Shown here: positions 58,301 through 61,258 of the stretch, piece after piece
How the letters are laid out: each line of letters opens with the position of its first letter
Numbering within the stretch: the first letter of the stretch is position 1
NCBI RefSeq assembly: GCF_033153115.1
Contig: NW_026889758.1
Coordinates: 16,616,001-16,680,000 of the forward strand
Origin: Saccostrea echinata
Lineage: Eukaryota
Reading direction: 5' to 3'
DNA length: 64,000 bases
Made by a program: the position numbers and the translations under genes
The notes under the pieces: model-generated
Seen by the model: the letters and a program-made list of their open reading frames with translations, nothing else
What the model was told of the DNA's origin: nothing
Databases searched by the model: none

Positions 58301-61258
58301 TAGTTTTTTGTGTGGTGATAAAATTACGGTGTGTTCTGAATTGGCTTGTACCTTTTGAAGGTCTCTGTATTTGAGGTTCCTCTTGCAACACTGGAGGCTT
58401 CCCTGGAAATAGAGATTCCCTTATGTGTTCGATCATACCGGTATTACATTTCATCATACTATCTATAATATGCGTTTTACATTGTCTTGATGAATTTGTT
58501 ATTCATCCTAGTCTAAAATGCAAATTGGCTGACAAACATTTAGACATTTACCAGGTTTAAATCGCCAAATTCCAAAAGCGCCAAATCCAGTGGATATTCC
58601 GATGACGTTAGTTTTGTATGGACGGGGGTCCTTCCATCTCATGAGGACCTGTTGTTCACATATTCCTCCGCGACCTACCTTGATTTCACCTCTGACCCAG
58701 GTGATCCAAAACGGTCTAAATTCCTTACAACTCAATAACCCACTTCTGAAGGACGCCCTTGGGGGACCTTGCTTTGTGTTCCGTATCACAGATTTACTGT
58801 TTCTCCAACCGCCAATTACAATCTCGTAAAAGTTTTTGGTCTGTTTTGTCGAGTCCATGATTGCAATGTGGGCGTCGTTACACGACAATACCTCAAACTG
58901 GAAACAGGTTCTGTCTTTTGCGGTGATACCATACTTAGTCAGAAATTGATAGTTATAACTGTTGGGTGTCTTCACTGTGACAGTTTTTGGAACTATGGAA
59001 TGAAAATTTCGGTTTAAAAACGAGTGAGATTCTTCCGTTTTTATTCGACTTCTTTGTATAAAATTCTATAGAACGTGGAATACGTACTATATAGTATTTA
59101 AAACTAATCTCACCTGATGTCCTTAGAGGTTTGGATGGTGTTGCTGAAAAGAAAATTAAATAATGTCAAGTACAACAATAGGAAACAAACTTATCAATAA
59201 ATCTATAACATACACATAAAAAAATTAATATTTTTTGAAGATATATGGCTTCTTACCTTGGCAACTGTAAGTGAAATCAAGATACTTAAATGTCCCCTTG
59301 CACGGGTCTCCAAACACGGTATTGGAGGCATATAGTTCACAGGACTGTTTTCCATCGCAGTGACCCCTTACTTTTGCAAGAGCATTCTTAGATGCGCATC
59401 TCAGAGTTCGAATTTTGCCTCTACAAATTGATCTACTGGATCTCCCGTAGTTTGCTGCGAGTATTCTCAAACGTGATCCTTTGGGACAGGATATTTTTCT
59501 TTTTGAACGTTCGCAGACAATGAGTTTTGTTGAACCTGAAATTTAAGAACAGAATCAGAGAGTAGTATCTTACGTTGCTTATTCTAGATTACTAATTCAA
59601 TTCAGGAGAGAATACTCAAATTGATTCAATTCATTATAATGTTCCATTCATACAAGTTTGTCTCATTCTTACTCCGAATTTCTTTAATTTTTCGGACAAT
59701 GCTTTCTTGACTTTTTCCTCTACTTTCACGGCTTTCCCCTCCGCTTTTATCACTTTCCCCTCCGCTTTTTCCTCTGCTTTTATCACTTTTCCCTCCGCTT
59801 TTTCCTCTGCTTTTATCACTTTTCCCTCCGTTTTTTCCTCTGCTTTCATGACTTTTCCCTCCGCTTTTTCCTCTGCTTTTCCCTCCCCTCCCTTCACTTT
59901 TTCCTCGGCTTTTTCCTCCGCTTTTATCGCTTTTCCCTCCGCTTTTTCCTCTGCTTTCATCACTTTTCCCCCCGCTTTTCCCTCTGCTTTTCCCTTCCCT
60001 TTCTTCACTTTTCCTCCTGCTTTTTCCTCTGCTTTTTCTTCCCCTTTCTTCACTTTTTCCATGGCCTTTTCCTCCCTTTTTTAGTATGTTTTCTTTGTTT
60101 TCCCCTTCCTTTTCTTTTCTTTTTCTCCTTTTTATGTCACTTTTCCCACCGCTCTCTTTACTTTTCCCTCCTTTTTTGTCAATTTTCCGTGCTTTTTCTA
60201 TTCTTTTCTTTATGTTACTTTTTCCTCCGCTTTTATCGCTTTTCCCTCCGCTTTTTCCTATGCTTTCAACACTTTTCCCTCCGCTTTTCCCTCTGCTTTT
60301 CCCTTCCCTTTCTTCACTTTTCCTCCTGCTTTTTCCTCTGCTTTTCCTTCCCCTTTCTTCACTTTTTCCTTGGCTTTTTCCTCCCTTTTTTAGTATGTTT
60401 TCTTTGTTTTCCCCTTCCTTTTCTTTTCTTTTTCTCCTTTTTATGTTACTTTTCCCACCGCTCTCTTTACTTTTCCCTCCTTTTTTGTCAATTTTCCGTG
60501 CTTTTTCTATTCTTTTCTTTATGTTACTTTTCCAGCTATCTAGTTTAGTTCTTATTACTTTATTATCCAATTTTGATCCAATTTCTTTTCTGTTTACATC
60601 TGGTTCTTTACGTTTCCCATCGTCTTTTTGCACTTTCCCTCCGCTTTGTTTAGGTTTTCCTCCTTTCCCCCTCTTTTTCTTCCCTGGAATTTTGAGAAAA
60701 GTTTGTGCTAAAATACATATGCCTACTAGGGATGTGCGATTTTATCGGTAAACCGGTATATCGTGATTTTTAATTGTGTGATACGCATCATGATACGGAG
60801 ATAAAACTACCGGTATTTAGGTACATTGTTAAAAATTCCAGAAAATATTTATTATTTGTTCAATCTTTCAAATTACAATTTCAGGAAGTGTAAAGAATGT
60901 TGAAAACGAACGCGACAAAGAAAGACATCCTAGTATCTAAAATTGTCCTAGTGTCCAAAAAGTTGAAGTTATGTTTTTTCTAGCATATTTTTCGGGAAAA
61001 ATTACGAATATTCATCTAAAATCATTGTAAAATTGCTTGTAAAAATATCATGATATTATCGTGATATTTTAGGGGGAAATCGTGATATATCGCAATACGA
61101 AATTTTTGGTGATACCCATCCCTAATGGCTACCTTACAAAATTTGATAAATAAATTCCGTGGTGTTTAAAAAACAAAGGAGATAAGTACTAATTTACCTT
61201 CTACTTCAGCTACTATAATCAGGACCGTGAGGAGGAGAAGAATAATGTAGAGCCTCAT
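43347..61258 (-). CDS. Large secreted mosaic protein (FCGBP/zonadhesin/Sfp1-like): SP, KR-rich repeat, SUEL lectin, FAMeT, WSC, EGF, 4x(VWD-C8-TIL-EGF), degenerate VWD-like tail; 35 exons, about 2654 aa
   Basis: Exons (high to low): 61258-61198, 60707-59673, 59535-59257, 59143-59114, 58992-58552, 58402-58352, 58225-58092, 57996-57864, 57653-57549, 57444-57200, 56426-56116, 55978-55686, 55407-55202, 53858-53663, 53572-53456, 53363-53119, 52725-52415, 52219-51927, 50441-50236, 49996-49801, 49662-49558, 49366-49122, 48965-48655, 48558-48260, 48043-47841, 47335-47143, 47045-46941, 46506-46265, 46169-45859, 45716-45424, 45085-44886, 44548-44356, 44271-44212, 43919-43611, 43354-43347. All introns GT-AG, phases consistent, total 7965 nt. 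Four ASGDPHY..DG.MIHFMG.CKYT VWD starts and G.CG.C.G motifs. Confidence 0.9.
45081..45318. repeat. 49-bp minisatellite derived from a splice acceptor and exon start
   Basis: cagagctgaaaacaatagcagggttatacacagtactctaggagcaggt units at 45081, 45130, 45179, 45228 (short), 45259, 45308. Confidence 0.88.
50555..51341. mobile_element. 787-bp foldback element, TTAA TSD (Kolobok-like)
   Basis: TTAA|AGGTGCTTAGACACAGATTTGAACTTAATATTTTCTCAAATTTTCTGTATAAT ... mirrored end ...AAGCACCT|TTAA; arms of about 370 bp pair along their whole length. Confidence 0.85.
51483..51710. mobile_element. Inverted pair of a retroelement terminal fragment (possibly Penelope-like); single related copy at about 47673-47815
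   Basis: GGAGCAGAGTAAACACGGACCTCTAAAACATCAGAGGTGGGAT followed by its reverse complement ATCCCATCTCTGATGTTTTTAGAGGCCCGTGTTACTCTGCTCC. Family assignment is from recall only. Confidence 0.5.
53966..54497. mobile_element. PIF/Harbinger-like MITE
   Basis: TTA|AACCCCAGTCACATTT ... AAATGTGACCCAGGTA|TTA. Confidence 0.7.
54570..54788. mobile_element. TA-flanked MITE
   Basis: TA|CTGTGGAATCATTATATTTC ... GAATTTTAATGATTCTACAG|TA, with internal CCACGAA repeats. Confidence 0.75.
56488..57165 (-). mobile_element. Decayed HINE-like element
   Basis: aacaagag at the left end; CACTTGAGCTTCTGGTTCAAGTGAGCTAAAA at the right end (5' end on minus). Confidence 0.5.
57864..58225 (-). CDS. WSC carbohydrate-binding domain (two exons)
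   Basis: YLGCYED...R.L ... LTISSCKELC...G.KYAGVQ / ..ECFCGN ... ECSYPCSGNSKEKCGAAWRMNVY. Confidence 0.88.
58552..58992 (-). CDS. Farnesoic acid O-methyltransferase-like (Methyltransf_FA) domain exon
   Basis: F.V.SCNDAHIA ... YEIVIGGWRNSKSVIR ... LLSCKEFRPFWITW..G.IKVGRG ... W.DP.P ... IGISTGFGA.G.WRF. Confidence 0.85.
59257..59535 (-). CDS. SUEL-type (galactose/rhamnose-binding) lectin domain exon
   Basis: VCE....ISCPKG..LRILAANYGR ... VRGHCDGKQSC.L.ASN.VFGDPCKGTFKYL..TYSC, containing the ANYGR and DPC.GT.KYL hallmarks. Confidence 0.9.
59673..60707 (-). CDS. Exon 2 of mosaic gene: 345-aa Lys/Arg/Gly/Ser/Glu low-complexity repeat domain
   Basis: gtattttag acceptor and A|gtaaga donor, both phase 1, in frame with ORF 59626-60633. 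GKSGGKS/KSRGKS repeats and a 309-bp internal duplication. Confidence 0.8.
60727..61124. mobile_element. hAT MITE in intron 1 of the mosaic gene
   Basis: TAGGGATGTG ... CCCATCCCTA; 8-bp TSD ATGCCTAC / ATGGCTAC (7 of 8 match). Confidence 0.75.
61198..61258 (-). CDS. Exon 1 of mosaic gene: signal peptide MRLYIILLLLTVLIIVAEVE(A)
   Basis: aaaATG context, basic residue plus hydrophobic core, G|gtaaat donor. Splicing to 60707 gives a VEA|Q cleavage site. Confidence 0.85.

What the first reader, a model, noticed from the sequence alone, without database searches (positions are those of the whole stretch)
59673..60707. The purine-rich low-complexity tract is a real exon encoding a polycationic disordered domain with furin-type sites
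The tract looks like simple repeat DNA, yet it has a phase-1 acceptor and donor that link signal peptide to lectin in frame over 1035 nt with no stop. It encodes GKSGGKS/KSRGKS repeats, is Cys-free, and contains two RRKR motifs that fit the R-X-K/R-R convertase consensus. Ser next to Lys/Arg could be phosphorylated. Possible roles are electrostatic surface binding, coacervation, or release of cationic antimicrobial peptides (inference).
Basis: partly seen in the sequence, partly recalled or inferred. Interest (0 to 1): 0.7.

Follow-up and report, generated by a model that had tools for sequence, protein, structure and literature searches.

The report
Oyster glue-type protein's lysine-rich tail
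This repeat-like stretch is a real, spliced exon encoding the lysine-rich, predicted-disordered front end of a large oyster protein predicted to be secreted, built like flatworm and sea-star glue proteins; related tails occur in scallops and mussels, and it likely helps bind or gel negatively charged mucus.

Summary
The exon is real. One of six frames is open, and RNA-type contigs of two studies splice it to the lectin exon. The likely acceptor is 60683, not 60707: four of four oyster orthologues read VEG|KK. It encodes about 336 Cys-free residues (net +78, half of them charged) at the N-terminus of a single-copy protein of about 2,700 aa: signal peptide, tract, SUEL, FAMeT, WSC, EGF, four GDPH-vWD-C8-TIL modules. 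A Lys-rich tract sits at this place in 9 of 13 other orthogroup rows (oysters, scallops, mussels); the Argopecten model lacks it. The furin idea fails: 2 sites against 1.5 by chance, both from one duplication, none in 6 of 9 tracts. What recurs across the three orders is Ser-Lys-Glu, the S-x-E consensus of the secretory kinase FAM20C (enriched in 9 of 9 Ser-bearing tracts). Best reading: a retained cationic tail on a mucus or adhesive scaffold, working like flatworm Mlig-ap1, possibly tuned by phosphorylation. Tissue and function are untested. The RefSeq model of this gene reads the exon in the wrong frame.

The parts
61305..61312 (-). TATA-like box about 50 nt upstream of the ATG
   Evidence: read by eye; untested
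61198..61258 (-). Exon 1 coding part: hydrophobic signal-peptide-like sequence, phase-1 donor
   Evidence: matches N-termini of four oyster orthologues; no signal-peptide predictor run; no RNA contig covers it
60726..61124 (.). About 400-nt repeat element with short terminal inverted repeats in intron 1 (MITE-like, inference)
   Evidence: many 80-95% contigs end at 60725-60727 and 61124-61131 in all four runs; inverted ends
60684..60707 (-).
59673..60683 (-). Exon 2 (1011 nt): Lys/Gly/Ser/Arg/Glu low-complexity tract, 336 full codons, net +78, 30 GKS, 11 S-x-E, no Cys, no Tyr
   Evidence: single copy in G000
59909..60531 (-). 309-nt (103-codon) tandem duplication inside exon 2, 97% match; carries both RRKR motifs
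59257..59535 (-). Exon 3: SUEL (galactose/rhamnose) lectin domain
   Evidence: Pfam PF02140 E 4e-24; RNA contigs
59114..59143 (-). 30-nt linker exon
   Evidence: both joints in an X1 contig
58553..58993 (-). FAMeT (Methyltransf_FA) domain exon
   Evidence: PF12248 E 7e-35
57865..58225 (-). WSC domain over two exons
   Evidence: PF01822 on both halves
44350..57669 (-). EGF plus four GDPH-vWD-C8-TIL-EGF modules in many exons (GDPH near 57.4, 53.3, 49.3 and 46.5 kb)
   Evidence: open frames, Pfam on module 1, tblastn of P0160 and P0207, Pfam on P0207
43347..43920 (-). C-terminal 8-Cys domain without a Pfam family (43611-43920) and the last exon with the stop (43347-43354)

Best explanation
The tract is a spliced coding exon for a Lys-rich, predicted-disordered N-terminal tail of a likely secreted lectin-vWD-C8-TIL scaffold protein, and the tail likely stays attached and binds or condenses negatively charged partners in a mucus or adhesive gel. 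Shown: open frame, 3' splice junction, composition, domain order, single copy, and a Lys-rich tail at the same place in oyster, scallop and mussel orthologues. Inferred: the signal peptide is cut after VEG so the mature chain starts with the Lys run; the vWD-C8-TIL modules form the cohesive network and the SUEL and WSC domains bind glycans; the tail bridges sulfated or carboxylated mucus polymers, cell glycocalyx or anionic surfaces by charge alone, since it has no Tyr (no DOPA) and one aromatic residue; Golgi FAM20C phosphorylation of the S-x-E sites would lower the net charge (+78 to about +56 here) and tune storage or setting. The tissue (larval foot, mantle or gill mucus) is not known.
For: Frame and splicing. 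Domains. Orthogroup of 14 rows with support 89/93 on the first vWD domain, backed by a shared C-terminal domain. Lys-rich Cys-free tail in 9 of the 13 other rows: 4 of 4 oysters, 2 of 3 scallops, 3 of 3 mussels; 3 rows (two Pinctada, one Tegillarca) start without a signal peptide and cannot tell. Net charge per residue 0.16-0.60 and hydropathy 0.19-0.33, below the Uversky boundary in 9 of 9 tracts measured. Length varies in whole codons among C. virginica models (first Cys at 422, 442 or 470). S-x-E is above shuffle in 9 of 9 Ser-bearing tracts (p<=0.006), and after removing duplicate contexts Glu at +2 is the commonest of six offsets in 9 of 9. G000 holds two Fam20C-family loci; S-x-E is the FAM20C consensus (PMC12650399, passages). 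Analogy: Mlig-ap1 has Lys/Arg tracts around a lectin-vWD-C8-TIL-EGF core, is needed for adhesion by RNAi, and heparin blocks attachment (PMC6410801, passages). vWD-type 'IgGFc-binding/zonadhesin-like' genes are pediveliger-enriched in C. gigas (PMC6337334, passages) and enriched in the quagga mussel footprint (PMC12993968, passages).
Against: No tissue, stage, protein or binding data for this gene. I could not tie it to the pediveliger genes CGI_10010553-57 (supplement unreadable; no EKC accession), and oysters have paralogues, so those may be other genes. The Argopecten model has a signal peptide and six SUEL repeats but no tail. Tail sequence is not conserved beyond oysters (M. edulis scores no better than shuffles). 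The tail is far less cationic than Mlig-ap1's KR regions (pI 10.8 against about 14.5). S-x-E counts are inflated by repeats and shared ancestry; the margin is thin in the window (9 against 8 at offset -1) and in M. edulis (7 against 6); the folded part of P0207 also has an excess (18 against 8.8); only 2 control tracts were available; the M. galloprovincialis fragment has no Ser. Whether FAM20C accepts sites among many Lys was not found. Flatworm adhesion is reported to be indifferent to salinity, which its authors say may mean independence from environmental charge effects (PMC8621496, passages).
Confidence: 0.55

Rival explanations
1. The protein belongs to the shell or periostracum matrix, and the (phosphorylated) tail organises anions, Ca2+ or acidic matrix proteins during shell formation.
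For: FAMeT domains are reported in molluscan biomineral proteins (PMC9382459, passage); a 'zonadhesin' is among shell proteins shared by six lophotrochozoans (PMC13425148, one passage); Fam20C acts in pearl-oyster shell formation (PMC5824888, search listing and start of abstract only).
Against: No record links this gene or its orthologues to shell (accession search empty). C. gigas, C. virginica and O. edulis orthologues show no FAMeT hit. Closest architectures are glue and mucus proteins.
Confidence: 0.15
2. The tail is a tolerated, largely dispensable spacer; only solubility and lack of Cys matter.
For: Rapid turnover of repeat units and lengths; absent from the Argopecten model; 5 of 7 differences between the two 309-nt copies change the residue.
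Against: Net positive charge, Lys richness and the SKE core persist across three bivalve orders; all repeat periods but one weak row are multiples of 3.
Confidence: 0.12
3. One reading: a convertase cuts at RRKR and releases cationic antimicrobial peptides.
For: Two RRKR and 33 dibasic pairs; one RRKR is kept in S. cucullata; Mizuhopecten has 2 sites against 0.3 expected.
Against: 2 observed against 1.53 expected, P=0.46; both from one duplication; none in 6 of 9 tracts, including O. edulis, C. virginica and C. gigas; the pieces would be Gly/Ser/Glu-rich with almost no hydrophobic face, unlike most membrane-active peptides (recalled).
Confidence: 0.08
4. The protein is a gamete or egg-coat component (zonadhesin-like or SUEL-type role), and the tail binds sulfated egg jelly.
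For: Database names say 'zonadhesin-like'; two 'zonadhesin' genes mark an unassigned oyster cell cluster thought possibly gonadal (bioRxiv 10.64898/2026.05.15.723513, passage).
Against: The names come from the vWD repeats; no MAM domain; that cluster lacked germline markers, and its genes were not identified with this one.
Confidence: 0.07
5. The tract is intronic simple repeat or an exon that is normally skipped.
For: Exon 1 can join exon 3 in frame; the upstream junction is unseen; the RefSeq model of this gene does not use this frame.
Against: Spliced contigs in two studies; 82 of the first 115 residues identical to S. cucullata; in-frame tails in all 5 C. virginica and all 4 full-length C. 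gigas models listed.
Confidence: 0.03

Closest known systems
[quoted passage not shown]
   Same: Large protein with low-complexity Lys/Arg/Gly(Ser)-rich tracts beside a lectin + vWD-C8-TIL + EGF core (PMC6410801, PMC8621496; passages).
   Different: ap1 has tracts at both ends (over 3,600 aa, pI about 14.5), a C-type lectin, one vWD unit and 17 EGFs. This protein has one 336-aa N-terminal tail with 14% acidic residues, a SUEL lectin, FAMeT, WSC and four vWD units. Orthology was not tested (no ap1 sequence identified in hand).
Sea star footprint proteins Sfp1 and Sfp2; limpet P-vulgata_1 to 4
   Same: vWD, C8, galactose-binding lectin, EGF and FAMeT domains in a cohesive glue protein with an autocatalytic site (PMC9382459, PMC6410801, PMC7333891; passages). 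P-vulgata_4 has short cationic repeats.
   Different: No long cationic tail was seen for Sfp1/2 in the passages read; no FA58C hit here. PMC9382459 suggested FAMeT might be sea-star specific among glues; this bivalve protein has one, but its adhesive role is unproven.
Oyster, scallop and mussel 'zonadhesin-like / IgGFc-binding protein-like' gene models (XP_062587284, XP_048735098, XP_078313062, XP_034323367, XP_021348638, XP_060070842, XP_071160832)
   Same: These are the orthologues; their models already contain the tail.
   Different: They carry automatic names only. A search for six accessions found no paper. The RefSeq model of this very gene (XP_061173301) starts inside the exon in another frame and has no signal peptide.
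Gel-forming mucins and FCGBP
   Same: Repeated vWD-C8-TIL units; GDPH motifs as in FCGBP (GDPH role recalled).
   Different: No PTS domain and no FCGBP_N domain (definitions from PMC4948705, passages); a cationic tail takes the place of a glycosylated brush.

Membership tests
ap1-type flatworm adhesive protein | Low-complexity Lys/Arg-rich cationic tract | tested here: met
   K+R 37%, net +78, pI 10.8; weaker than ap1
ap1-type flatworm adhesive protein | vWD-C8-TIL unit with EGF domains | tested here: met
ap1-type flatworm adhesive protein | C-type lectin domain before the vWD; tracts at both ends | tested here: not met
   SUEL lectin instead, no C-type lectin hit; C-terminal part near neutral. 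Works like ap1 at most; not filed as a member.
ap1-type flatworm adhesive protein | Expression in adhesive gland and loss of adhesion on knock-down | not testable with these tools
   runs are coded contigs without tissue
Sfp1-like cohesive proteins | vWD, C8, galactose-binding lectin, EGF and FAMeT in one chain | tested here: met
   Sfp1 features from passages
Sfp1-like cohesive proteins | Autocatalytic GDPH sites | tested here: met
   four motifs; cleavage itself not tested
Sfp1-like cohesive proteins | Orthology to Sfp1 and presence in an adhesive footprint | not tested
   no Sfp1 sequence identified among hits; original paper not held
Gel-forming mucins | PTS domain (Ser+Thr at least 40%, often Pro over 5%) | tested here: not met
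   at most 28-32 P+T+S per 100 residues in four oyster orthologues; tail has 15% Ser and no Thr or Pro to speak of
Gel-forming mucins | C-terminal cystine-knot domain (recalled feature) | tested here: inconclusive
   no Pfam hit; model pLDDT 84.5, best Z 5.3, no clear fold match
FCGBP (IgGFc-binding protein) | FCGBP_N domain | tested here: not met
   PF17517 not hit in P0207, P0163 or P0083, but found in another protein in the same scan
Zonadhesin | MAM domains and mucin-like repeat before the vWD run (recalled; PF00629 seen on vertebrate hits) | tested here: not met
   no MAM hit
Furin/convertase-processed precursor | R-x-K/R-R above chance and conserved | tested here: not met
FAM20C substrate | S-x-E in a secretory-pathway protein, kinase present | tested here: met
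   with the caveats given; motif only
FAM20C substrate | Phosphate shown on the sites | not testable with these tools
   needs phosphoproteomics

The most novel reading that the evidence does not exclude
Oysters, scallops and mussels share an undescribed, DOPA-free glue scaffold, the bivalve counterpart of flatworm ap1, whose cationic tail is a phospho-switch: FAM20C phosphorylation of the conserved Ser-Lys-Glu repeats sets the net charge (from +78 to +56 here, to near zero in O. edulis and negative in Ylistrum if all sites are used) and so controls granule storage, setting or release of larval and pedal adhesive.
Probability: 0.2. Interest if true: 0.7.

Novelty: new variant of a known kind. 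Interest (0 to 1): 0.4.

Why it matters
The make-up of oyster larval adhesive and pallial mucus is poorly known, and a Lys/Arg-rich tail like this is nearly invisible to trypsin proteomics and short-read assembly (both noted for ap1 in PMC6410801 and PMC8621496). The finding names one single-copy gene, shared by three bivalve orders, as a testable candidate, and gives a specific prediction (phospho-S-x-E, polyanion binding) in place of the furin idea. It also corrects a RefSeq model that hides both the signal peptide and the tail in this species. If the protein is only a general mucus component, the value is modest.

Tried and rejected
Furin sites as a feature: rejected. Acceptor 60707: disfavoured by orthologues; pyrimidine content does not separate the two sites (0.61 each). 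RNA: one search listed no holder on record as RNA, only five guessed-RNA contig sets; four were laid (X4 was not). Exon 1 and its junction have no cover, which shows nothing either way. Six of 7 listed differences in X1-X3 lie in the 309-nt duplication and equal the other copy, so they are mapping effects; one 1-base insertion at 60413 is in a 48-nt contig with 3 mismatches, while a 153-nt X2 contig spans the place without a gap. X5 (a related organism) has a GKS-type contig at the same depth as its lectin contig (32 and 31), which is suggestive only. First homologue search with the FAMeT exon gave 3 uninformative hits. The tract has no Pfam family. ESM Atlas gave no answer. C-terminal domain: no Foldseek match at E<=0.001; VIA best Z 5.3 (rmsd 3.1, 80 aligned, HAP2), vWD-containing chains at Z 3.6-4.5; inconclusive. 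Literature: ten searches found no paper on this gene or tail; subscription journals are mostly not covered. Passages with nothing on this gene: PMC5549309, PMC10396302, PMC6201952, PMC6193008. One supplement of PMC11432763 (C. gigas mucus proteome) had 0 hits for four terms. The supplement of PMC6337334 was unreadable and bioRxiv supplements are closed; either could hold expression data for this gene. Earlier scan findings: none. The full spliced protein of the window was not built; P0160 and P0207 stand in for it, so the length of about 2,700 aa is an estimate from P0207 (2,693 aa).
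Full report
Observation. On the minus strand, 59673-60707 is 85% purine and has no stop in one frame, against 13 and 34 in the other two minus frames and 2-4 on the plus strand; 0 of 2000 base shuffles left a frame open. That null ignores the repeat structure, so I rely more on other evidence. Tandem periods inside the tract are 12, 21, 33, 42, 45, 66, 78, 111 and 309 nt, all multiples of three except one weak 11-nt row. The encoded sequence is Cys-free, with 126 basic and 47 acidic residues and pI 10.8.

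Splicing. Four sets of contigs guessed to be RNA were laid. One contig each in X2 and X3 (one sample) bridges the 137-nt intron between the tract and the lectin exon with at least 88 letters on each side. In X1 (another study) the lectin contig ends in 10 letters that equal the end of the tract exon and not of exon 1. No contig shows skipping, but depth is low and contigs drop rare forms. Nothing covers exon 1 or the upstream junction.

Acceptor. There are two in-frame AG sites, giving exon starts at 60707 and 60683. S. cucullata, O. edulis, C. virginica and C. gigas all read VEG|KK at this point, which is what 60683 gives. The exon is therefore most likely 59673-60683 (1011 nt), and the mature chain would begin with the Lys run (inference from the conserved hydrophobic leader).

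The gene. Pfam on single exons gives SUEL lectin, FAMeT, WSC, EGF, vWD, C8, TIL and EGF in that order; four GDPH-vWD modules follow down to about 44 kb, then an 8-Cys C-terminal domain without a family. The lectin exon's next-best match in G000 is 46% or less identical and the tract matches only itself, so the gene is single-copy. RefSeq XP_061173301 (S. echinata, P0160) matches the window at 97-100% over most exons, so this is very likely that species. That model starts at an ATG inside the tract, reads 60062-59673 in another frame (13 stops upstream in that frame) and has no signal peptide. The S. cucullata model (2,693 aa) has the frame found here, with 82 of the first 115 tail residues identical.

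Orthologues. A tree of first vWD domains from 36 proteins groups this gene with four oyster, three scallop, three mussel, two Pinctada and one Tegillarca rows (support 89/93, below the starred level). An HMM of the C-terminal domain finds the oyster, scallop, one Pinctada and three mussel proteins at E<=1e-27. Of the 13 other rows, 9 have a Lys-rich Cys-free N-terminal tail, 3 start without a signal peptide and cannot tell, and Argopecten has a signal peptide followed directly by SUEL repeats. Repeat units differ by lineage: GKS and GGK in oysters, HSKE in scallops, YSKE and HSKE in mussels. Composition is kept while sequence is not. All 9 tails measured fall on the disordered side of the charge-hydropathy boundary.

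Furin test. R-x-K/R-R occurs twice against 1.53 in 10,000 shuffles (P=0.46), and both lie in the two copies of one duplication. Six of 9 tails have none; S. cucullata keeps one, and Mizuhopecten has two against 0.3 expected, which is the only point in favour. Dibasic pairs are abundant, so cutting by other proteases is not excluded.

Phosphorylation test. S-x-E is above shuffle in 9 of 9 Ser-bearing tails (11 against 5.1 here, p=0.006; 56 against 12.6 in Ylistrum); a tenth tail fragment has no Ser. Of six control spacings, ES was raised in two oysters and ExxS in the two mussels. SKE is among the top four trimers in oysters and first in scallops and mussels. After collapsing repeated contexts, Glu at +2 is still the commonest offset in 9 of 9, narrowly in the window and in M. 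edulis. Caveats: shared ancestry, an excess also in the folded part of P0207 (18 against 8.8), and only 2 unrelated control tracts out of 379 Cys-free stretches screened. S-x-E is the FAM20C consensus (PMC12650399, passages) and G000 has two Fam20C-family loci. No phosphate is shown.

Mechanism. The closest working model is flatworm Mlig-ap1: cationic low-complexity tracts around a lectin-vWD-C8-TIL-EGF core, cohesive, needed for adhesion, and blocked by heparin (PMC6410801, passages; PMC8621496, passages). The folded part also resembles sea star Sfp1/2 and limpet pedal mucus proteins (PMC9382459, PMC7333891; passages). I infer a secreted scaffold whose vWD modules network, whose lectin domains bind glycans and whose tail binds polyanions; oyster larval foot glands do hold acidic polysaccharides (PMC6193008, passages). 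With no Tyr and one aromatic residue the tail needs an anionic partner and cannot use DOPA. Confidence 0.55; that the exon is real, about 0.97. Rivals: shell matrix 0.15, dispensable spacer 0.12, furin-released peptides 0.08, gamete coat 0.07, non-coding 0.03.

Membership. It is not a gel-forming mucin (no PTS domain), not an FCGBP (no FCGBP_N) and not a zonadhesin (no MAM), despite database names. It meets the domain list of Sfp1-like proteins but orthology and footprint presence were not tested. It works like ap1 at most, since the lectin type and tract layout differ.

Novelty. The exon is already in the gene models of four other oysters, so its coding status is not new. Ten literature searches, one by accession, found no description of the gene, the tail, or the S-x-E pattern; subscription journals and unread supplements may hold one. 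Verdict: a new variant of a known kind, interest 0.4. All papers were seen as search listings or matched passages only; none was read whole.

Noticed in passing
window 59673-60062 (-); P0160 = XP_061173301: The RefSeq model of this gene reads the 3' part of the exon in a wrong frame (an AEEK-type repeat), lacks the signal peptide, and its junction does not fit the 137-nt intron seen in the contigs.
   Followed up: yes
window 43611-43920 (-): C-terminal 8-Cys beta-rich domain with no Pfam family, shared by the bivalve orthogroup and some paralogues; confident model (pLDDT 84.5) but no clear fold match (best Z 5.3).
   Followed up: partly
   Followed up: partly
window about 219-18450 (+): A multi-exon gene whose frames look like PP4 regulatory subunit 3 (SMEK); name recalled, not tested.
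   Followed up: no
window 13004-14024, 16707-17881, 21452-22167, 23881-24464, 35164-37032: Satellite-like arrays with periods of 156, 147 and 124 nt.
   Followed up: no
P0202 (Macrostomum lignano, A0A1I8JJH6): A flatworm protein with very Arg-rich tracts, a SUEL lectin, vWD, TIL, vWA and EGF domains, which by its domains is not the published ap1; a second cationic vWD protein in that species.
   Followed up: partly
P0166 (Tubulanus), P0188 (Haliotis), P0167/P0170 (Mytilus paralogues): Other lophotrochozoan vWD proteins outside the orthogroup also have basic N-terminal regions (Lys/Pro repeats, Lys/Val/Gly tract, or Lys-rich EGF/WSC arrays), so a cationic front end may be a recurring design.
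   Followed up: no
P0157 (Argopecten irradians): Orthologue model with six tandem SUEL domains where the others have the tail; real replacement or missed exon is open.
   Followed up: no
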